DNA of 64,000 nucleotides, from IMG/VR virus record IMGVR_UViG_3300028920_000034, positions 1 to 64,000 of that record. The stretch is one strand, 5' to 3'. Under the pieces are notes generated by a model that saw nothing but the letters and a program-made list of their open reading frames with translations, did no database searches and was not told the origin of the DNA. The first letter of the stretch is position 1. Every line of letters starts with the position of its first letter. The stretch is from a virus. A program made the position numbers and the translations under genes. Positions 411 through 62,900 of this stretch are shown here, piece by piece.

Positions 411-411
411 G

Positions 412-597
412 CTACGCCTCCACTTCATAGGTGGCCATGAACGCCGCCTCTTCCCACTCCGACTTGTAGTTCTGCTTGGACTTCACCCGGATGTGAACCC
501 TGTTCTTGTCCAGTGGAACCTCGCCCAAGCGGAGCCCGATGTGATCCAACACCAGCTTGCGGAGCTCGCGTTCATCGATCTCAATTTTCACCTTCAT
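412..597 (-). CDS. hypothetical protein
   Basis: 61-aa ORF with GGAGG RBS and protein-like composition. Confidence 0.7.
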   Translation of the reverse strand: MKVKIEIDERELRKLVLDHIGLRLGEVPLDKNRVHIRVKSKQNYKSEWEEAAFMATYEVEA

Positions 598-606
598 CGT
601 GCCCTC

Positions 607-1338
607 CTACTTGGGGAACATCTGGTTGGCCACGATGGTCCCGCTTGCCGTCATCTGGAGACAGCCTTCACCGCGCTGGGATTGAATCCACAGAAGCCCC
701 CGGCGCCTGAGCATCCGGATGGCCCGCTCGCAGGTATGGCGGCTCATGTAGTGCTCGAGCTCTGCCGTGAGCTGGCTCTGCTTCACCTCCATCCTGGCCG
801 GCGCCCCGGGCATCGACATGCGAAGCACGTTCCACAGCACAAGCCGCTCCCGGTTGGTGAGGTGCCCGAGGAGCTCGGCCCAGAACGGACTGTCCTCCGG
901 TGGGAGCTCGCCGGCCCTCCGCGCGCCTGGCGGGGGCCCCAGTTGCTCGGCCTTGATCCGCTCCCAGTCCCCGGGGCCCCTGGCGTCCTCATGGAATGCG
1001 TCTGGGTTGGCCTTTGCGAACTCGGCCTCCCACACCTTGTGATCATCTTCGGACAGCCGGAACAGCCGATCATTGTCCGGGGGCAACGGCTCAGGCGCCT
1101 GGCGCCCCATCAGCTCGCGGAGAGCCACCACCAGGTCGTCCAGCTCGAAGGCAGAGGTACAGCACCCCGCCTCGCAGAGCTGGGCCACCAGGGCCCGCTG
1201 GTCAGCCTGGTAGGTCACCGGATAGACGCACTCGCCCACGTCGTCCTCTTGCTCCCCTTCGGGGAACCGTGTCTCCTCGAGGTGGTCATCCCACCAGTTG
1301 AGGAACCGGGTGATCTGTCGCTCCAGATCATCCCTCAC
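607..1338 (-). CDS. protein with C-terminal winged-helix DNA-binding domain
   Basis: GTGA overlap start; C-terminal LTNRERLVLW...QSQLTAEL..MSRHTCERAIRMLRRRGLL wHTH pattern. Confidence 0.65.
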   Translation of the reverse strand: MRDDLERQITRFLNWWDDHLEETRFPEGEQEDDVGECVYPVTYQADQRALVAQLCEAGCCTSAFELDDLVVALRELMGRQAPEPLPPDNDRLFRLSEDDHKVWEAEFAKANPDAFHEDARGPGDWERIKAEQLGPPPGARRAGELPPEDSPFWAELLGHLTNRERLVLWNVLRMSMPGAPARMEVKQSQLTAELEHYMSRHTCERAIRMLRRRGLLWIQSQRGEGCLQMTASGTIVANQMFPK

Positions 1339-1988: not shown

Positions 1989-2180
1989 TCACTTACGCAG
2001 CATCCAGGTGGACGGAACACCGTGAGACCAAGTGATTCTCTTGACGTGCCCCTGGGCAGGACGGTCCACCTTGACTCCCACCGCGCGGACTCGCTTGCCG
2101 TCCACCTCGTAGACCACGGCCAACCGCTGCCGCGTGGGATTCCAGTAGACCTGCCCAGGTTTGGCACCCCGCTCAGGCAT
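1989..2180 (-). CDS. hypothetical protein
   Basis: probable start MPERGAKPGQVYWN, overlapping the stop of the upstream gene. Confidence 0.55.
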   Translation of the reverse strand: MPERGAKPGQVYWNPTRQRLAVVYEVDGKRVRAVGVKVDRPAQGHVKRITWSHGVPSTWMLRK

Positions 2181-2364
2181 CCCTTCCGTTGGCCTCCGGG
2201 AAACGGTTGGACCACCAGCGATCACCTGCCTCTTCGGCCTTGTCCAGCCAATCCTGTAGGGCCTCATCGATCATCGCCTGAATCGACACGCGCCGCTTGA
2301 AGTTGAGCACCCGGAGCCGCTCATGCGTCTCACTGGTTACGTGTGTTGCCTTACGGTCAGCCAT
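2173..2364 (-). CDS. ribbon-helix-helix (CopG/Arc-like) DNA-binding protein
   Basis: KATHVTSETHERLRVLNFKRRVSIQAMIDEALQDWL strand-helix-helix pattern; GAGGAGG RBS. Confidence 0.7.
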   Translation of the reverse strand: MADRKATHVTSETHERLRVLNFKRRVSIQAMIDEALQDWLDKAEEAGDRWWSNRFPEANGRDA

Positions 2365-2385: not shown

Positions 2386-2414
2386 ACGCTATACCGGTTT
2401 ACAGGTAGAGTCAA
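2386..2414 (-). promoter_or_regulatory. sigma70-type promoter
   Basis: TTGACT-17 nt-TAGCGT upstream of the RHH gene. Confidence 0.6.
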
Positions 2415-2562
2415 CCTGCTTCGGGCGCCACCAGGTCCACCTGGTACGCCCATGGATGCGCGTCCGGCTGCCAAAGGTCCAACCGTCCCGGACGAGCTCC
2501 ATCTGCTCATCGAAGTCCAGCTCACCCTCTACCGTCTTGATCTCTCGCTCACCATTACTCAT
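2389..2562 (-). CDS. small hypothetical protein immediately after the pentamer array
   Basis: AAGGAG (end of array tract 3) 6 nt before ATG; MSNGEREIKTVEGELDFDEQMELVRDGW... Confidence 0.6.
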   Translation of the reverse strand: MSNGEREIKTVEGELDFDEQMELVRDGWTFGSRTRIHGRTRWTWWRPKQVDSTCKPV

Positions 2563-2567
2563 TGATA

Positions 2568-3083
2568 GCTCCTTGCCTTGCCATGCCCTGCCTTGCCTGG
2601 CCGCGCCTAGCCTCGCCCAGCCGCGCCCCGCGTTGCCGGGCCACGCCACAACCCCGAGCCGGCGCCAGTGAGCCCGCACTCGGGATGCTACCTTTCCGCA
2701 GCTCCTTGCCTTGCCCAGCCACGCATCGCCGCGCCTTGCCGCGCCATGCAGCGCCTTGCCGCGCCCAGCTCTGCCGTGCCCTGCAAAGCCACGCTTCGCG
2801 CTGCTTTGCCGGTCCCTGCCCAGCCCGACCATGCCGCGCCCAGCCCTGCCGCACCTCGCAGAGCCTGTCCTCGCCACGCCGTGCTTGGCCACAACCCCGA
2901 GCCGGCGCCAGTGAGCCCGCACTCGGGATGCTACCTTTCCGCAGCTCCTTGCCTTGCCCAGCCACGCATCGCCGCGCCTTGCCGCGCCATGCAGCGCATC
3001 GCCGCGCCTTGCCGCGCTACGCCATGCCCAGCATCGCCCCGCTCGGCCACGCCCTACCATGCCCTGCCTGTCCCAGCCGTGCT
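2568..3083 (-). ncRNA. array of (G)G(C)-NN pentamer tracts with structured linkers; candidate guide RNAs of the adjacent RAMP/Cas7-like protein
   Basis: three tracts of 27 (3083-2949), 37 (2890-2706) and 15 (2647-2573) in-register pentamers, second base always G; each ends GGCAA GGCAA GGAGC; identical 58-nt linkers at 2948-2891 and 2705-2648. Confidence 0.8.
2645..2997. repeat. exact 110-bp direct repeat within the array (2645-2754 = 2888-2997)
   Basis: base-by-base identity at offset 243, covering the linker plus the 3' part of tracts 1 and 2. Confidence 0.9.
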
Positions 3084-3092
3084 GTAGGGCTG

Positions 3093-3710
3093 CTACTTCC
3101 ACTCGCTCACCCGAAACTTGCCGTAGACACCCCGGAAGGTCCCCAGGCCGATGGCCACACCACCCTCTTCAAATAGGTTCTTGATCTCCTGTTCCTTGAT
3201 CTCGCGGTTCTGGAAAATCCAGAGGGTAAAGCTCAGGCTCCACGGAAGCGGGAGCACCGGGCGCTCCTTGGGATTCGGAATACCTTTCTCGAGCCTGGCC
3301 ACCCGGCGATCCAGGTAGATTCCAGAGGTTGGGTCTCGCTCCTTGTCCTGGTCAATGTCACCCATCTGAATCGGGTCCCCGTTCCGGCAAAATGGGATCA
3401 TTTCCGGTGACTCCTCCGGCCCCTGAATCATCGTGAAGCTCAGGCACGCATTCGCAATCTTCTTGTACTTGCGAGCGTCCCTGAGCCTCTTGGGGGCAGA
3501 GTTGGTGTTGTGGCTGGACAAGAACGAAATGATGTTTGAAGTCGGAAGCGCCAGCGTCCCGGTGCCAGGGATGAGGTACACTTTCTGGTTCCACATCAGC
3601 TTCGTGTCGTTGTCCCCCGCGTAGCGGTCGAACATGATCGGGGCTATCCCCTCCAGTTTCACCCTCCGCGTTACTTCTGCCATCGCTGTCAGTGATTCTG
3701 TCGCCTGCAT
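3093..3710 (-). CDS. stand-alone RAMP/Cas7-like RNA-binding protein
   Basis: N-terminal VKLEGIAPIMF strand, LALPTSNIISFL, RPVLPLPWSLSFTL and C-terminal Gly-rich loop GGVAIGLGTFRGVYGKFRV, typical of RAMP (Cas7/Csm3-like) folds; no other cas gene nearby. Confidence 0.75.
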   Translation of the reverse strand: MQATESLTAMAEVTRRVKLEGIAPIMFDRYAGDNDTKLMWNQKVYLIPGTGTLALPTSNIISFLSSHNTNSAPKRLRDARKYKKIANACLSFTMIQGPEESPEMIPFCRNGDPIQMGDIDQDKERDPTSGIYLDRRVARLEKGIPNPKERPVLPLPWSLSFTLWIFQNREIKEQEIKNLFEEGGVAIGLGTFRGVYGKFRVSEWK

Positions 3711-3771
3711 TTCGTTTCTCCCTCATGGTTCCTTGCCTTGTTTGTTCGGCCAGCCCATCCAGCCGAATCGT

Positions 3772-6592: not shown

Positions 6593-7924
6593 TTACTTGC
6601 TCACGTAGTAGTCCTTTGGAGGTGGCTCTGGGGCCCCCTCGTTGACCTTCGGAATCCCGCCGCGATAGTGAGGCTTAATGAACACCTGGCGCCTGAATTC
6701 GCGCCCTGGCCCGTAGGGCTGATTTCTCCAATGCCCTCTCACTACATGGCGAGCTCGCATCGAAACATCACCACCGGAGTCACCCAGGCGAGATTCGAAC
6801 TTGACACCAACGATGTAGATTGCACCCTTTTGCTTGCGCTCTATTGCGCGCTCGAGCTTACGGCGTTTCCTGGATCCATCCTGGTGCCTCTTCGCTCTGG
6901 CTGCCATCCTGTTGATTTCATCCTGGCAATCCAGTCGCACGTCATCCTGCATGTTGGTGGTGTAAAGGGCAAAATTGGCCACCAACGAAAGCAACCGCGC
7001 GTGCTTTTCATGAAACCCCTTTTTGCCACGATTCCGACCAGCAGCGCCCATGGACTCACTAACAACCGCACGGACGTGTTCGCTCACTGGGCTCCTATTG
7101 CGAGGCATGTGAAATGCGACTGGAAAAATTGGAGAGTCATACCCACAAACAATGCTTGTTGCAATGCTTGTTGCCGCCGCCTCCTCGCCAAACACCAGCC
7201 CTTCACTGACCACCATAGCCTCCAGAGACCCCATATTGCCAAAATGAACTTCATCGCCAGGAAACAAAATCACGCACTGTGGAAAAGGTAACCGCACATC
7301 GAACGAAGGCACATTCACATCCGTATGCCAAAACGATTCGATCAGCGATGACGAAATGTAGAACCTTGGGACAACACCGGCTTGAGCCTTGATCATTGCT
7401 TCATAATACGTTTTCCACCCAAAGGCAGAATCATGGATAGAAATACCAAGGGCGTCTTTTTCCCCATCCGCAACCATTTCCCTCGCGCGCCTAGACTCCC
7501 AGTGGTTCGCTATCCACGCCAATGAATAGGCAATCTTCATGAAACAGTCCGCCTCCATATCCGGAGTACCCTCAATCAAGGACGGATACTTCGCCGCAGC
7601 GGACTTGCAAAACCTGGTAGTCACTTTCAGGTTCGCGTGATTGTGCTTAATTCCACTCCACGCGCCAATTATGGTTTTTTTCCATTGTCTCCACGCACGC
7701 CGACGAATAGATGCTTCAACCTCAGTATCGCCCTCATACATAAGCTGGATAAACCTCAAAGCCACCTTGCCGGACAACAGTAGATCTTGCGCTCCATGTT
7801 CTTGCGCCCAAGCAATAAAAACACCCAGGTACGCAATGGGCTCTTGGTAATTGGAAACACCAGGAAGAGAAACAGCCGCCTCTTTGTAGGCCATTTCTTT
7901 GTACCTATCATTGTCACCCGCCAT
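6593..7924 (-). CDS. hypothetical protein, low-GC body, C-terminal HxVRGHWRxQ domain
   Basis: RARHVVRGHWRNQPYGPGREFRRQVFIKPHYRG; start coupled to upstream TGA. Confidence 0.75.
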   Translation of the reverse strand: MAGDNDRYKEMAYKEAAVSLPGVSNYQEPIAYLGVFIAWAQEHGAQDLLLSGKVALRFIQLMYEGDTEVEASIRRRAWRQWKKTIIGAWSGIKHNHANLKVTTRFCKSAAAKYPSLIEGTPDMEADCFMKIAYSLAWIANHWESRRAREMVADGEKDALGISIHDSAFGWKTYYEAMIKAQAGVVPRFYISSSLIESFWHTDVNVPSFDVRLPFPQCVILFPGDEVHFGNMGSLEAMVVSEGLVFGEEAAATSIATSIVCGYDSPIFPVAFHMPRNRSPVSEHVRAVVSESMGAAGRNRGKKGFHEKHARLLSLVANFALYTTNMQDDVRLDCQDEINRMAARAKRHQDGSRKRRKLERAIERKQKGAIYIVGVKFESRLGDSGGDVSMRARHVVRGHWRNQPYGPGREFRRQVFIKPHYRGGIPKVNEGAPEPPPKDYYVSK

Positions 7925-8100
7925 CAGTCCCTCCTCACCCACACCTGGTGGATCACAATGCCCGTCAGCGCCGCCATGATGCCAGTGACCGGATCGTCTG
8001 CAATGGCCCACCAGAGCCCAGCGCCAACACCCACCACCAACGCCACGGCCAGCGTGTCCACCACCTTCCTGGACCAGTCCATGAACAGCCTATTGAACAT
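7924..8100 (-). CDS. small two-TM membrane protein (58 aa, not in ORF track)
   Basis: MFNRLFMDWSRKVVDTLAVALVVGVGAGLWWAIADDPVTGIMAALTGIVIHQVWVRRD; GAGGA RBS. Confidence 0.6.
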   Translation of the reverse strand: MFNRLFMDWSRKVVDTLAVALVVGVGAGLWWAIADDPVTGIMAALTGIVIHQVWVRRD

Positions 8101-8344
8101 CGGTCCTCACTTTCGTGCCATCGTGGTTGCGCTCCGCCAGCTTCCTGGCCGCCCGGTGGGCGAAAGCGATGGCGCACCGCTTGATACAGAAGTAGCCCAT
8201 GCCGTCCACCCCCCGGGTCAAGGGCGGGGGCTCGCGGTCCGGATAGGCCCTGGCCCACCTCGCCTGGTCCGTGGGTCCGAGAAAGTAGGGCAACGGCTTG
8301 CCGCAGTGCAGACACCTGGGTGTCGGGGTTCTTCGCTTCGCCAT
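8090..8344 (-). CDS. zinc-finger protein
   Basis: CLHCGK ... FCIKRC. Confidence 0.65.
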   Translation of the reverse strand: MAKRRTPTPRCLHCGKPLPYFLGPTDQARWARAYPDREPPPLTRGVDGMGYFCIKRCAIAFAHRAARKLAERNHDGTKVRTDVQ

Positions 8345-51356: not shown

Positions 51357-54300
51357 CTACACCTCCTCCAGGTCCCAGGTGTTGAAATTGAAGGTGGTGC
51401 TCCTGGTGAGATTGTTCCCACTCAGGCCCACGATCCGATTCGTGCCCCCTCCGCCCGGATACCGAGCTCGCCCCTGGCCGGAGTTACTCATGACACAGGC
51501 GTCCGGGAAGCCCACCACCATCGTGTTGACCCAGAACGCCCGGCCGAAGTTGGGCGACGTTCCAATCATGGCCACCGAATTCCCGGTTACGCTCACCCCA
51601 TAGGGGCCGCCGCTGGGGTAGTCGCTCAGGTAATCGATCCCCAGCCACACCCGCTGGTCTGCCCCCGAGGCCCCCATCTGGTCCTCGTAGACGCAGTTGG
51701 CCACCACCAGGCTCAGAATGTCGTCCACGCGGATCCGCGCGTTCAGTTGGCCGGCCTTGTGCCGGTCAGACCCTGTACTGACATGGTGCATCCCATCGAT
51801 CACCAAGCGGCAAAACGCATCGCAGTGAACGTCATTCGTCTGCCAGTTTTTGATAGAGCCGCCGATGATGTTCACCGAGCCGTAGGTGGCACTGTTGGTG
51901 ATATAGACCCCCTTATAGGACTCGGTGGCCACTTGCGGGTCTGGGCCGGAGAGGTTCGCCGCCACAATGTCCACCTGGCCACGCTGTTCCACGTTTCGCA
52001 GCCGGATAGCCGTGAGCCCGAACACGGTGCCCCCCACCGTGGAACTGTAGTTGACAATGGCCGGCCGGATGATCTTGACGCTGGCCTCCGCGCTCACGTC
52101 GCTCACGATCAGCAAATTGTTGTCATCGTGATCAAAGGTGCGACCGTAGCCAACATTCTTGAACACAATGTCCTCCAGGACGTGCTCCTGGGGACCAGCC
52201 GTACAGTCCAAGGCAAACACCCCTCGCAGAGAATTGCTCCCAGCGATGAAGTTGGGCTCGCCCTCGCCCATGTCGATCTCGAGGCCGTGAATGTCCACCA
52301 GCATTTTCTGGCCGGCTTGATAGATGGCAAACAGGGACACCCCGATGTTGGTGTTGACGGGATGATCGTACTTGAGCTTGCAGTCTCGCACCGTGAGCCG
52401 GCCGTAACCGCCACCGCTTCCACGCTGGCCGATGAACACGCCGTAGTTGGTTCCACGGTGGACAAAGGAAACCCGGTTCAGAGTAAGGAAGATCCCCTCC
52501 GCCAAATTCGTGTCCACGTACAGACACGACGGGTAGGCCGCCCCGTCTTTTTGGCCAATCCGGCAATCCTCGAAGAGAATGTCTCCGGTCTCTGCGTCCT
52601 CATCGATCCACACCCCGCCGCCTTCGTTTCCACTGTTGACGGTTGGGTCAATGTCACAGTCCCGGAACACCACGTAGGCGTAATTGACGATGCTACCCGT
52701 GATCACCAGGCAATACTCGTCCGTGAGCCCAGTCACGCTGTAGGGAATGAAGCTGCACGTCTGGAACACCAGGCGCATTGACCATTCGTTGCTATCCGTG
52801 AGCGTGCGCCCCACGTCGTCGCAGATCACTTGGCCGTCAAACTTCACGTTTTCCACGATGCCCCAAGCGTACTGGAACGTGGTGGCCCCAGAGCTGGCAA
52901 AGTGACACTGCCGCATGTCTAGGTCACCACTGGTCACCGTGGAGTCCTCATTGAACACGCAGTTGCGAACCGCGACCATGATGCCCCGCAAGGTCACCGC
53001 ACCGTCAAAATTGCACCGCCTTAGAACCGTGCGGTCCTGGACACCGAGGCGCCCGAAGGTACACGGTCCGGCAATGTCACAGCCGTCCAGAATGACGGTG
53101 CCCCCGTTGGTTCCGCTGTCGATGGCAACGTCCCCGGAGGTGCTCGAGATATAGAGCCCGTCGCACTCCAGAACCGCACTGGAGCTTGCAAGCTGGATCA
53201 TCGGAACGGCATCGGCCCCGAGTCGCTTCACAACAATGTTGGGCCGCTCGCAAACGATCTTGATCTTCGTGGAAATGGACAGCGTGCCGAGCCAATACTG
53301 ACCAGTGGTAGCGATCCCTGGAGCGCCCTTCAGATAGATCGTGCCGCTCAAATTGTTGCTGGTGAGATACTGGATAGCGTTTGCCAAAGCACTGGCACCA
53401 GCGAAGTCCACACTGGCATCTGAGTCATCAGACGACACCACAGTGGCCGCGCAGTGATCCCGGATGGTCTGGCTGGTGACGGCGCTCATGCCCTCCCGCA
53501 CGCCCAGGACGCCCTTCGTGTACTCCTGAACGTCCAGGGAGCCGAAGGTGGACTTGGCTCCGGCCTTCACCGCTACCTCAGCCCACACCTGGAAGGGATC
53601 CGTCAGCCGGATGAACGGGTTTTCGTAGAACCCATCAGCATCCGCGTCCGAGCTCGGGGTAAGCTGCGATGTGTTGGTGCTGTCATAGATCCCATCGATC
53701 TGAATCGCCTTCCAGGTGTAATAGTCCCGGAGCCCTTCCTCGAGCGCCTCCCCGCCGCTGGCGCAGAACAGCTCAAACCACTTCTTGGCCGTCCCGACCG
53801 CGCCCTTCCCGATGTACCAGGTGCCCAGGAGCTGGAAACTGGCCACCGGAGGAGTCACGCTCACCACCTGGGTGGTCTTCTTGGCGAACACCCGGGCCTC
53901 GGTGGCGCTGATCGTGGCGAACGGATTGCTCGAGCTCGGGGAACTCGCCCCGTCCATCGCATCTTTCTGGTCCTGGTTCGGGAGTCGATCCCAAGCATCC
54001 TGGTTCATGAACCCGTAGGGATTCTTGTAGGTGGTGCTCGGCACCGGCTCGAGTGTGTTGGCCAAACTGTCGAGCTGCTTCACGTAGGACGTGAGGATCG
54101 TGGTGGCCCCCAGGGGGATCTCAACCTTGGCGAACGGGATGGAGTTGGCTCCCAGGTCCCCGATCTCGCCCACGCGCACGTAGCCCGTGACCGTGGAGCT
54201 CACTTGGTAGGTGGCGTCCAGCCACAGGTACAGGTCCAGCGAGGCCGCGCTGGCATCGAACTCGAACTCGAAGTCAAAGGCCGCATCGAAGCGGATCGCC

Positions 54301-59988: not shown

Positions 59989-62900
59989 CTACTGCCACAC
60001 GGCCAGCCATCCGGCCGTTCCGCCCAAGTCAATCTTGAGCATCCGCCACAGCGTCCAGGTCCCGCTGGCCGGCGCGTTGCCGTCCGGGGTTCCTACGCCA
60101 CTCGAGATGTTGTTTGTCTTGTCCGCAGCCGTGGAGCCGATGAAGTCCATGAAGGATACATCGTTGTCCGCCTGGTCCACAGTGAGGGCCACCACGGCGC
60201 CAGTGGCGCTATTCTGCTTCACATAGCCGGGGCTCAGGGTGTAAAGGCCGTACTCCCAGCTCGAGTCCGCGTAGAACCCGCGCTTGGTGGTGGCTGCACT
60301 TCCACCGGTGAGCTCCACGAACACACCGTAGATCTGAGAAGTCGCATCGTCCGTAGCCCCGGCCAGCGACACCTTGTGTCCGACCAGGCCCTGCCCGCTG
60401 CCCAAGTTGCCGGACTGGCCTTCGGTCCGGAGCACCTCGGTGGCAGTGGTGATCCCGGTAACCTGTTGCGTGATGCGCCCGTTGTTCTTGACGGCGAACT
60501 TGGACGTGCCGCTCAGGCGAGCATCGAAAATGTCACCAGCCCCATCCTGGTCAACGGTCAGGCCGGGGTTAGCGGAATTCGCGCTCATGTCCACCGCGCC
60601 ATTTTCTGCAATAGCCCAGCGTTCGGTGGTGCCGTCCAGTAGGCGGAGAATGTCCCCGGTGCTGTCCTGGCGCACTGTGAGCACCCCGATGCTCCCGCTG
60701 GTGGACGCAGTAATGTCGGTCCGCACGTTCACGTCCAGGAGCGTACCGGTGATCTTCGTGGAAGCCGCCACATCCGCGCCCACCTCGATCGCCTGACCGT
60801 TGCCTTGAATCTTGACCGAATGACCGGCCGCGCTGTTGTAGTCGATCTGGGCGCAGCGGAGTCGGCTGTACCCAGTCAGGTCCAGGTAGCGCCCGCTTGC
60901 TTGCTGGATCTCCACCTTGCCATGCGTGCTCACCTGGAGGTAGCCGTTGCCGTACTGGCCCTTGCACTGGAAAAGCGGGATCTCATTGAACCCGTCATCC
61001 GCTTCAACCTTCACCACGTACTCGGTGTGAGTACCGTTGTTGAGTTGCTTAAACCAAGCAATCGGAGCCGTCTCGTCTCCGCTCGCCTTGCTTCTGTGGA
61101 CGTAGAATGCGTTGCCGCTGTTGGAAGTCTGGTTGATCTCGAATGGGTCGCCCGCACCGGACACCGTGAGCACATTGCTGTTCGGGTCCGCGGCGTACAT
61201 CCCATCCCAACTCGAGACACCTCCACCTGGCAACGTGGTGGAACTGTAGGCTGGGATCCACCTGGTGCTTCCGCCCACCACCATGCGAAGCATGTCGGCC
61301 GTGGCACCGCTATCGGTGCTGATGTTACCAGCGGACCCAGCTTGCGGATTCCCTGCGTACTCGGCAAAAGGTGTAGTCCCGGTCAGGGACCAATAGGACG
61401 GTGCGTAGGCCCACAGAGACCAATCCCACGAATTCTGCACGTACATCGCCTTCGTGAGAGCTGTGACCGAACCGGCTTCGGTGTACCCGAAATTGACACC
61501 GATGAAATCGTAGTCATCGTTGGCGCCCCCATTGGCTTGGCCCTGGGCAGACACGGTGAGGATCTCGAAGGTCTTACCGGTATGGGTTGCCACGGTGTTC
61601 TGTCCGGAAACGGAAAGAACTGGCTGCGTTGCCGTTGCCAAGCCACTAGACGAAAACACGCCGGCCTTCACGTCACCGGTGTGACTCGCCTGGAATGCGG
61701 GATTGCTCGCAGACGATTCGATGTTCAGTGCGGACTTGAGGTACATGCCCAGGGTCCACGTGTCGTCCGCGTAGTAGCCCACGCCAACACCAGACCCGAG
61801 CGAGGTAGCCGTGGCCCTGTACCCGAACACGGCAGAGTCCGCCTCGGTGAGATTCGAGCCATCCGCTTCCACTGCCATGCCATAGGCCCAGGTGGCCGCT
61901 GCGAGAGCCCCCGACTGGTATGACAGCAAATAGCCGTCAAACGTGGCCGTTCCAGAATCCGAAACACTGTGATCAATTTTGCCACCGTGCCAAATATCGA
62001 ACCTCGGTGTCTGGGAAAGGAAGTTGCCATCAGCCACAGAGAAACTGGCTCCAGCTCCACTTCCGTTATTCAGAACACCGAGGGCAGATCGGCCAGTCGG
62101 AACATCGTCCACCACTACAATGGCGATGGCCTCTGAAATCATCCCGAAGTCCAAGGAGCTCGCTGCGTAGTACCCAACGTAGTCAGGACCAGGGAAAGAT
62201 GGGGCCGGCTTGGTGCCCGATGCGCTTGCCTCGAATGCACGGAAGGAATTGAAGCCAGCCGTGGAGTCGCCAGGGTTGGCCACCACCTGGGAGTGAATGT
62301 TTCGCTGGACCCTGGCCGCTTGGGTGATCGCCGCAGAACGGGTGGGCGAAATAAACACCAGGTCAACATCGCCAGCCACATCGGTGAGCGTTCCGGTCAG
62401 GTTCAGTGCCGTAGAATCGCTGGCCCCCACAAAGCTGGCCAGGCCCGTGGACAGGAGCGCCGTGGAACCGGCCACGCTCAGGGCCGCCTGCGTGTCTGCC
62501 GCGTTGACAGTCTCCACGGACATGAGCGGAGCATCGCTGGTGGACTGGTCTCGGAACACCCGGAAGCCGGAGCCAGTGGCAATGTCCTGCTCCCACTGGA
62601 GCACCGCCCCGTCGATGGTCATCGTCTTGCTGGCAGAGTACAACGCATTCCAGCTCGAGACGCCCCCGCCGCCAGCGCCGGGCTGCCACCTCGAATTGCC
62701 CGTAGACCAGACCAGCGCCTCGCCGTCCGCGGGCGCCGTGTTGGCCACATCGCGCCCCTGGAGCCCAACCACCGTGGCCGCGCCGATCTTGCCGCTCAGG
62801 TCCCCACCAGGGCTCACATAGCCCCACTCGGAGCCACCGTCATCCCATTCCATGAGATTGCCGTCTGCACGGGCACCCGTGGTCACTCCGCCGCCCCTGA

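What the first reader, a model, noticed from the sequence alone, without database searches (positions are those of the whole stretch)
2568..3710. Stand-alone RAMP/Cas7-like gene followed by a (G)G(C)-NN pentamer array: candidate CRISPR-independent RNA-guided system
Seen: 9 nt after the stop of a 205-aa gene, the minus strand runs in strict 5-nt register for 79 units in three tracts (27, 37, 15). Positions 1-3 are nearly constant (mostly GGC; also GGT, GGA, AGC, TGC, CGC; middle G invariant) and positions 4-5 vary freely. Tract 3 NN series: GT CC AA GG GC TG GA TA GC CA AA AG AT AA AA. Tract 1 starts AC TG CA AG AT AG GT CG GG GA TG AT GT GC. Tract 2 starts CA AC GT GA CA TC GA GC AG TG GC AT CG TG AG CC AA AG GA GT TT AG AC AG TG GC. 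Known: the protein has the N-terminal strand and C-terminal Gly-rich loop (GLGTFRGVYGKF) of RAMP/Cas7 proteins, which polymerise along guide RNA at a fixed number of nucleotides per subunit. Inference: each subunit grips one constant triplet and displays the NN pair, so the guide is a discontinuous code read from the dinucleotides. A likely use is against competing phages or host genes. There is no cas1/cas2/cas5/cas6 or canonical CRISPR in the window. From memory, this matches an architecture recently termed VIPR (GGY/NN repeat RNAs); that should be checked before claiming novelty.
Basis: partly seen in the sequence, partly recalled or inferred. Interest (0 to 1): 0.97.

Follow-up and report, generated by a model that had tools for sequence, protein, structure and literature searches.

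The report
Phage VIPR system: Vipr plus guide arrays
An uncultured 153-kb phage carries a small Cas7-like gene followed by three tracts of five-base GGC-NN repeats, which is a new example of the VIPR RNA-guided DNA-silencing systems described in 2026 preprints; its targets could not be found.

Summary
Nine bases after the stop of the 205-aa gene (3093-3710, minus), the minus strand runs in strict 5-nt register for 28, 38 and 16 units. Position 2 is G in 82/82 units, position 1 is G in 65/82 and position 3 is C in 73/82. Shuffles of the contig give runs of at most 10.

The protein folds as a RAMP: its best structural matches are all Csm3/Cmr4/Cas7-11, up to Z 9.7. A family profile hits the solved SUSP1 Vipr protein at E 2.8e-9. 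All 99 homologous loci I fetched carry same-strand GGY-NN arrays beside the gene, and no other neighbouring gene is conserved.

This is therefore a VIPR system (bioRxiv 10.64898/2026.04.26.720920), most likely the type without an accessory gene. This scan has already noted VIPR loci in about 149 other genomes.

Local details:
- A 110-nt exact repeat (11 terminal units plus a two-hairpin tail) ends tracts 1 and 2.
- A (GGCAA)2-GG cap is conserved across the clade.
- A sibling phage 93% identical lacks the whole 1.2-kb cassette.

No target was found in the phage itself, the sibling, IMG/VR or JGI metagenomes.

The parts
3093..3710 (-). vipr gene, 205 aa: a single-RRM RAMP protein with a C-terminal glycine-rich loop (G184-F199) and a thumb arginine (R150)
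   Evidence: The AlphaFold2 model has pLDDT 82 and pTM 0.81. The top Foldseek and VIA-align matches are all CRISPR RAMPs, with Csm3 9g9a_D at Z 9.7. The family profile A2 hits SUSP1 Vipr 36pp at E 2.8e-9. It is the only copy in the contig.
3711..3771 (-). vipr leader. It holds a cap-like GGCAAGGAAC at 3737-3728, 20 nt before the ATG, and a GGAG ribosome-binding site.
   Evidence: Read directly. In 67 of 96 homologous loci a GGC[AG]AGG cap lies within 70 nt upstream of the vipr start, against 0 of 96 in a control stretch inside the gene.
2944..3083 (-). vrRNA tract 1: 28 GGY-NN pentamers. About 17 are variable; 11 are shared with tract 2, ending GGCAA GGCAA GGAGC.
2891..2943 (-). tail 1: 53 nt, predicted to form two hairpins (a 5-bp stem with a GGAAAG loop, then a long CCCGAG/CUCGGG stem)
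   Evidence: The fold is -29.3 kcal/mol with z -2.2. It is identical to tail 2. It matches no Rfam family at E up to 10 and is not found in 99 other vipr loci.
2701..2890 (-). vrRNA tract 2: 38 pentamers, about 27 variable and 11 shared with tract 1
2648..2700 (-). tail 2, identical to tail 1
2568..2647 (-). vrRNA tract 3: 16 pentamers with the same cap but no structured tail. Its cap AAGGAG serves as the ribosome-binding site of the next ORF (ATG at 2562).
2645..2754 (.). copy A of a 110-nt exact direct repeat (copy B is 2888-2997). Each copy holds the terminal 11 units, the tail and the first GGC of the next tract, so it acts like a repeat that bounds the variable guide segments.
2549..3771 (.). 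extent of the VIPR cassette as an accessory module. In the sibling phage this 1,223-bp stretch is replaced by 296 bp holding an unrelated small ORF.

Best explanation
This is a VIPR (Viral Interference Programmable Repeat) system carried as a 1.2-kb accessory cassette by an uncultured 153-kb phage.

Shown here:
- The 205-aa protein is a RAMP-fold homologue of the solved SUSP1 Vipr protein.
- Three same-strand GGY-NN pentamer tracts follow it directly.
- This gene-plus-array linkage holds in every homologous locus examined.

Inferred from the published type II work:
- vipr and the tracts are transcribed together and processed at or near the tails into vrRNAs.
- One Vipr protomer binds each pentamer. 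The thumb Arg (R150) and the G-loop (F192, R193) flip out and hold the G-G-Y bases, and the NN pairs are displayed.
- The filament reads double-stranded DNA by pairing NN with NN and skipping one target base per unit. It then blocks transcription of the bound gene, presumably in a competing mobile element or phage in the same host.

No accessory vap gene belongs to this clade, so repression rather than cleavage is expected. The last 2-3 units (GGCAA GGCAA GG) are a constant cap rather than free guide letters.
For: Arrays: 28, 38 and 16 units, position 2 G in 82/82, and runs far beyond shuffles.

Fold: the model has pLDDT 82. Every Foldseek match listed down to E 1.1e-3 and the top 27 VIA-align matches are CRISPR RAMP subunits (Csm3, Cmr4, Cas7-11, type VII Cas7), with Z 6.2-9.7 over 130-160 residues.

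Homology: SUSP1 Vipr (PDB 36pp) is the best PDB sequence hit with the single protein (E 0.21), with a close-family profile (E 0.048) and with a broad 79-sequence profile (E 2.8e-9, next hit 0.6). In these alignments the SUSP1 functional residues R138, W178 and R179 (10.64898/2026.04.26.720927) correspond to R150, F192 and R193. R150 is invariant and R193 is at least 90% conserved in the family.

Linkage: all 15 GTDB loci, all 4 ENA/NCBI loci and all 80 IMG/VR loci have same-strand arrays of at least 8 units beside the gene. None of the 80 IMG/VR loci has one on the opposite strand.

No other conserved neighbour gene was found.

No CRISPR array or Cas1 is present in the contig.

Phage context: it is an IMG/VR record with 100% CheckV completeness, and the neighbours hit PHROG families.

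Published definition and mechanism of VIPR.
Against: No target was found under the 1-nt-skip rule. I searched the phage itself, its sibling phage, 99 vipr loci, six seed scans of IMG/VR and two of JGI metagenomes.

Nothing here shows expression, processing or RNA binding.

Tracts of 28 and 38 units are longer than the 9-16 repeats described for type II, so the mature RNA boundaries are unknown.

The Asp that reads G1 in SUSP1 (D177) is Thr here (T191). The skip rule has not been demonstrated for this clade.

Tract 3 has no structured tail.
Confidence: 0.9

Rival explanations
1. It is a VIPR system, but its natural role is not inter-phage warfare. The guides would silence host genes (for example defence or metabolism) or regulate the phage's own genes, including vipr itself through the cap-like site in its leader.
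For: No phage target was found in IMG/VR. A cap-like GGCAAGG sits 20 nt before the vipr start, and 67/96 homologous loci have such a cap within 70 nt upstream. The cap of tract 3 overlaps the ribosome-binding site of the next ORF.
Against: There are no self-matches above noise anywhere in the 153-kb genome under skip rules 0-3. In most homologues the upstream cap is simply the end of an upstream vrRNA. The host is unknown, so host targeting could not be tested. Published natural targets are satellites and prophages.
Confidence: 0.15
2. The protein is a stray Cas7 subunit of a decayed or minimal CRISPR-Cas system, and the pentamer tracts are unrelated simple repeats.
For: The closest solved folds are type III Cas7 proteins such as Csm3 and Cmr4.
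Against: The contig has no CRISPR-type repeat-spacer array and no Cas1. The protein hits no Cas model in Pfam, NCBIfam or PADLOC. The pentamer arrays accompany the gene in 99/99 loci from many phyla, always on the same strand. The only PDB sequence homologue is Vipr.
Confidence: 0.02
3. The tracts are coding. They would form part of the 237-aa open frame 2389-3102, or of one of the plus-strand frames, and encode a Gly/Ala/Arg-rich repeat protein.
For: Several long ORFs run through the region on both strands.
Against: A 5-nt period cannot keep a reading frame. GC-rich G/C repeats lack stop codons by composition. The sibling phage has the downstream 57-aa ORF with its own start and no tracts. 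Arrays in homologues vary in number, length and side of the gene.
Confidence: 0.02

Closest known systems
VIPR systems (Vipr protein plus vrRNA), bioRxiv 10.64898/2026.04.26.720920, 10.64898/2026.04.26.720927 and 10.64898/2026.10.15.759431. The experimental exemplars are the type II systems of Escherichia phage SUSP1 and a Pseudomonas fulva prophage.
   Same: Both have a small single-RRM RAMP protein with a G-loop and thumb, and alternating GGY/NN pentamer RNA genes on the same strand next to the gene, each followed by a constant 3' tail. Both are phage-borne and lack a CRISPR array and adaptation genes. There is profile-level sequence homology to SUSP1 Vipr, and the thumb Arg and the G-loop aromatic and Arg residues are conserved.
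   Different: There is no vap gene here or in 99 homologous loci. The tracts have 28 and 38 units against the published 9-16. Position 1 of the triplet is relaxed (G in 79% of units), and the G1-reading Asp is replaced by Thr. The tail is a pair of hairpins specific to this phage rather than the SUSP1 pseudoknot. The clade shares a constant (GGCAA)2-GG cap. The targets are unknown.
VIPR type I, inferred by elimination from the preprint text: seven types and six vap genes, with the vap genes assigned to types II-VII
   Same: It is a stand-alone vipr with arrays on one or both sides and no conserved accessory gene.
   Different: The type tables and trees (data S4, fig. S16-S17) are not held here, so the assignment is unverified. 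The hammerhead ribozymes shown in the preprint for some type I arrays are absent here and in 20 related loci.
Class 1 CRISPR-Cas backbone subunits (Cas7 family: Csm3, Cmr4, Cas7-11 domains)
   Same: They share the RAMP fold and presumably the way of gripping RNA at a fixed number of nucleotides per subunit with a thumb that flips bases out.
   Different: The period is 5 nt rather than 6 nt. The guide is made of dinucleotides rather than a contiguous spacer. There are no CRISPR repeats, no Cas5/Cas6/large subunit and no adaptation module.

Membership tests
VIPR | Vipr protein with RAMP architecture (RRM core, glycine-rich loop, thumb) and no second RRM | tested here: met
   The AlphaFold2 model has pLDDT 82. 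Csm3, Cmr4 and Cas7-11 are the top matches, with Z up to 9.7 over residues 9-205. It is 205 aa with a single domain.
VIPR | Sequence homology to an experimentally characterised Vipr | tested here: met
   The 79-sequence family profile hits SUSP1 Vipr (PDB 36pp) at E 2.8e-9 and 40 bits; the next PDB hit is at E 0.6. The single sequence gives only E 0.21.
VIPR | Adjacent tandem pentamers with conserved GGY alternating with hypervariable NN, on the gene's strand | tested here: met
   There are 82 units; G2 is 82/82, G1 is 65/82, and position 3 is Y in 76/82. NN uses 15 of 16 dinucleotides. Arrays are present in 99/99 homologous loci, and 0/80 have them on the opposite strand.
VIPR | Invariable structured 3' tail after the repeat tract | tested here: inconclusive
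   Tracts 1 and 2 end in an identical 53-nt tail predicted to form two hairpins (z -2.2). Tract 3 has only the cap. With two identical copies and no homologous tails elsewhere, covariation cannot be tested.
VIPR | GGY-binding residues: thumb Arg, and G-loop Asp, aromatic and Arg (SUSP1 R138, D177, W178, R179) | tested here: inconclusive
   In the HMMER alignments R138 = R150, W178 = F192 and R179 = R193 are kept. D177 = T191 is not (residues). The Thr goes with a relaxed G1 in the repeats, but this is only a correlation.
VIPR | Minimal locus without CRISPR array or adaptation genes, mostly viral or proviral | tested here: met
   No CRISPR-like repeats and no Cas1 in the 153-kb phage record. 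Homologues sit in IMG/VR contigs and in prophage-like contexts with integrase, Bro-N and similar genes.
VIPR | Accessory vap gene next to vipr (typical of types II-VII) | tested here: not met
   No neighbour of this vipr recurs beside any homologue. The downstream ORFs are also present in the sibling phage that lacks vipr. Absence of vap fits the one type without a vap gene, so it does not exclude membership.
VIPR | vrRNAs are expressed, co-purify with Vipr and direct binding to DNA by the 1-nt-skip rule | not testable with these tools
   This needs small-RNA sequencing, pull-down and reporter assays.
VIPR | Natural targets recoverable as NNx matches in competing mobile elements | tested here: inconclusive
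   No match above the skip-0/2/3 controls in the phage itself, the sibling or 99 loci. Eight seed scans of IMG/VR and JGI metagenomes gave only chance-level extensions. The host and its mobilome are not available.
Class 1 CRISPR-Cas (Cas7) | Operon with other cas genes and a CRISPR repeat-spacer array | tested here: not met

The most novel reading that the evidence does not exclude
The vap-less clade to which this locus belongs may work with a modified code. It would have guides of up to 40-48 units, a constant (GGCAA)n cap that nucleates the filament and also sits on ribosome-binding sites (of vipr itself in most loci and of the next ORF here), and a relaxed first G read by Thr instead of Asp. 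Its arrays would be organised like repeat-spacer units (the 110-nt constant block here), which would let guides turn over by recombination. If so, this clade would show features of guide biogenesis, autoregulation and guide exchange not described in the text of the preprints held here; their figures and supplementary data were not readable.
Probability: 0.2. Interest if true: 0.55.

Novelty: new member of a known kind. Interest (0 to 1): 0.3.

Why it matters
It adds a well-formed VIPR locus from a large uncultured phage, and it places that locus in a broad clade. The clade has 297 clusters at 50% identity and at least 148 IMG/VR contigs. Within it, the protein travels with nothing but its guide arrays. 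Comparison with the sibling phage shows that the whole system behaves as a 1.2-kb swappable cassette. The long tracts, the conserved cap and the Asp-to-Thr change give concrete, testable variants of the published recognition mechanism. It does not open a new category.

Tried and rejected
1. Self-targeting. Best 12-unit windows scored 17-18 of 24 bases under all four skip rules, which is noise.

2. Targeting of the VIPR-less sibling phage (whole 153.5 kb fetched). Noise under all skip rules.

3. Cross-targeting among 233 guides and 99 vipr loci, and foreign guides against this phage. The skip-1 rule showed no excess over the controls.

4. IMG/VR seed scans.
   - T3[1-9], T3[4-11] and T1[1-9] gave 0 hits.
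   - T1[6-13] gave 11 hits. The best was 12 of the first 17 units, in frame, in an AT-rich 165-aa ORF found on six IMG/VR contigs. I judged this chance (p about 0.01 after selection, and the base composition is wrong for a 64% GC phage).
   - T2[9-16] gave 34 hits and T2[17-24] gave 17; none extended.

5. JGI metagenome scans. T2[3-12] gave 0 hits. T3[2-10] gave 13 hits. The best was 11 consecutive units inside a seryl-tRNA synthetase gene, with the skipped base at codon position 2. The expected number of such hits is about 0.05-0.15, so I judged it chance.

6. Guessed peptides decoded from tract 2 (sense and antisense), searched by tblastn against 50,697 phage records. No match at E up to 10.

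7. A guide from the Paraburkholderia phenoliruptrix homologue against 213 genomes of its genus, with up to 3 mismatches. No match.

8. Rfam families, including hammerhead ribozymes, in the window and in 20 related loci. None.

9. The neighbouring genes (291-aa phrog_6247 'topoisomerase'-type, 57-aa ORF, 63-aa weak RHH hit) as vap candidates. Rejected: none recurs beside homologues, and all are present in the sibling without vipr.

Full report
**Observation**

On the minus strand the 205-aa ORF ends at 3093. After 9 nt, three tracts run in strict 5-nt register:
- tract 1: 3083-2944, 28 units
- tract 2: 2890-2701, 38 units
- tract 3: 2647-2568, 16 units

Over 82 units the middle G is invariant. 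The first base is G in 65 and the third is C in 73. The last two positions use 15 of the 16 dinucleotides.

Applying one rule to the whole 153-kb contig finds only these three tracts, plus two 7-unit runs. Twenty shuffles of the contig give longest runs of 7-10 units.

**Anatomy**

- Tracts 1 and 2 are each followed by the same 53-nt tail. It is predicted to form a 5-bp hairpin and a long CCCGAG/CUCGGG hairpin (-29.3 kcal/mol, z -2.2).
- The identity extends back into the tracts. Positions 2645-2754 and 2888-2997 are a 110-nt exact repeat that holds the last 11 pentamers, the tail and the first GGC of the next tract. The locus therefore reads as variable segment, constant block, variable segment, constant block, and then a short third tract.
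- All three tracts end GGCAA GGCAA GGAGC.
- Tract 3 has no tail. Its cap AAGGAG lies 5 nt before the ATG of a 57-aa ORF at 2562.
- A cap-like GGCAAGGAAC also sits 20 nt before the vipr ATG, at 3737-3728.
- No Rfam family matches the region at E up to 10.

**The protein**

Pfam, NCBIfam and PADLOC give nothing. PHROGs gives one family of unknown function on the C-terminal 50 residues.

An AlphaFold2 model built on 26 homologues has pLDDT 82 and pTM 0.81. Every Foldseek match listed down to E 1.1e-3 is a CRISPR RAMP backbone subunit. An independent all-against-representatives structural search puts 27 RAMP chains on top, led by Csm3 9g9a_D at Z 9.7 with 154 aligned residues.

By sequence, the best PDB match is 'SUSP1 Vipr protein' (36pp):
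- E 0.21 with the single sequence
- E 0.048 with a close-family profile
- E 2.8e-9 with a profile of 79 diverse members, where the next hit is at 0.6

The alignment covers the thumb base and the G-loop. Three SUSP1 residues shown to hold the GGY bases are kept: R138, W178 and R179 correspond to R150, F192 and R193. D177, which reads G1, is T191 here. T191 is nearly invariant among close homologues, and G1 is the least constant of the three fixed bases. That link is only a correlation.

**Linkage to arrays**

The family is large:
- 2,201 clusters at 90% identity among the word-sharing candidates
- 297 clusters at 50% identity in an exhaustive profile search
- 148 IMG/VR contigs

I fetched 15 loci from GTDB genomes, 4 from NCBI/ENA assemblies and 80 from IMG/VR. 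The GTDB loci include Planctomycetota, Paraburkholderia, Desulfovibrio, Ignavibacteriaceae and Methylococcaceae. Every locus has GGY-NN arrays of at least 8 units beside the gene on the gene's strand, and none of the 80 IMG/VR loci has one on the opposite strand.

Arrays lie upstream, downstream or on both sides. Their length runs from 8 to 48 units with a mode of 11-14, and about 12% have 25 units or more. The long tracts here are therefore a feature of the clade.

- 175 of 221 arrays end in GGC[AG]AGG.
- In 67 of 96 loci such a cap lies within 70 nt upstream of the vipr start.
- The 53-nt tail is found in no other locus.
- No other gene is conserved next to vipr.

**What it is**

These are the defining features of VIPR systems, which I read in the three 2026 preprints:
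- A phage-borne ancestral RAMP (Vipr) oligomerises with one protomer per YNNGG repeat.
- It sequesters the GGY bases and presents the NN pairs.
- It binds double-stranded DNA with one skipped base per unit and silences transcription.

The published work covers type II systems that have vap1. The text lists seven types and six vap genes assigned to types II-VII. A vap-less clade would therefore fit type I, but I could not see the type tables. The hammerhead ribozymes mentioned for some type I arrays are absent here and in 20 related loci.

The contig has no CRISPR-like array and no Cas1. It has one vipr copy.

**Genome context**

The window is the first 64 kb of a 153,114-bp IMG/VR record that CheckV rates as 100% complete. 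Its first 147 nt recur at the end with one mismatch. Its GC content is 64%.

A sibling record, IMGVR_UViG_3300029258_001212, is 153,540 bp with terminal repeats and 100% completeness. It aligns to 88.5% of this genome at 92.8% identity. In the sibling, window 2549-3771 is replaced by 296 bp encoding an unrelated small ORF. The flanking 291-aa gene and the 57-aa and 63-aa ORFs are kept. The sibling has no vipr and no arrays anywhere.

The VIPR unit is thus one of 21 variable segments of 300 bp or more, a swappable accessory cassette. Its neighbours are not vap genes.

**Targets**

I decoded the tracts under the 1-nt-skip rule and compared the results with skip 0, 2 and 3 as controls. There is no signal in any of the following:
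- the phage itself
- the sibling
- the 99 vipr loci
- foreign guides tested against this phage

Six exact seed scans of IMG/VR and two of JGI metagenomes gave either nothing or hits that did not extend. The two best were an in-frame 12-of-17-unit match in an AT-rich 165-aa ORF found on six IMG/VR contigs, and 11 consecutive units in a serS gene with the skipped base at codon position 2. Both are at the level expected after selecting among seeds.

Guessed decoded peptides found nothing in 50,697 phage records. A guide from a Paraburkholderia homologue found nothing in 213 genomes of its genus.

The host is unknown, and no cultured phage is close. The biological target therefore remains open.

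**Verdict**

The locus is a real, intact VIPR system and a new member of a known kind.

This scan has already recorded VIPR-type loci in about 149 other genomes, and several close homologues were judged the same way.

The points worth keeping are:
- the cassette polymorphism between sibling phages
- the repeat-spacer-like 110-nt block
- the clade-wide cap that coincides with ribosome-binding sites
- the Asp-to-Thr change that goes with a relaxed first G

Noticed in passing
window 3728-3737 (minus): A cap-like GGCAAGGAAC lies 20 nt before the vipr ATG, although no array lies upstream here. In 67/96 homologous loci a GGC[AG]AGG cap lies within 70 nt upstream of the vipr start (0/96 in a control stretch). 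It may be a vestige of a lost upstream vrRNA or a Vipr binding site on its own leader.
   Followed up: partly
window 2562-2579 (minus): The cap of tract 3 (AAGGAGC) lies 5 nt upstream of the ATG of the 57-aa ORF 2389-2562, so it doubles as that ORF's Shine-Dalgarno sequence. The sibling phage has the same ORF with a different N-terminus and no cap.
   Followed up: partly
whole contig G000 against G216 (L176-L183): The sibling phage IMGVR_UViG_3300029258_001212 covers 88.5% of this genome at 92.8% identity. Twenty-one segments of 300 bp or more are unaligned. They include window 411-825, 2549-3771 (VIPR), 6996-8114, 52776-53453 and 61954-62477, and a cluster between 109 and 143 kb.
   Followed up: partly
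G000 1-147 and 152968-153114: The contig ends repeat its first 147 nt with one mismatch (146/147). This suggests a complete, circularly closed or terminally redundant genome, although IMG/VR lists it as linear.
   Followed up: yes
window 2568-3083 (minus), and 80 IMG/VR loci: The first variable base (N4) is purine-rich: 77% here and 69% in the clade. CT is never used among the 82 dinucleotides here. This may reflect codon position 1 of targets read in the sense orientation, or a constraint from the protein.
   Followed up: no
window 2173-2364 (minus): A 63-aa ORF with a weak ribbon-helix-helix antitoxin-like Pfam hit (PF20605, E 5e-4, below the cut-off). It is conserved in the sibling phage that lacks VIPR, so it is not an accessory of the system.
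   Followed up: partly
L166 5487-5518 (minus), JGI contig Ga0209633_10000068: Eleven consecutive units of tract 3 match inside a seryl-tRNA synthetase gene of an unrelated 50% GC contig, with the skipped base at codon position 2. I judged this chance.
   Followed up: yes
L007 6618-6730, L013 1962-2075: In some homologous loci the vrRNA cap is followed by a clear GC hairpin plus a T-run (an intrinsic terminator). In others it is followed by a short A/T-rich TTTTGAT-type tail. Tails differ widely within the clade.
   Followed up: no
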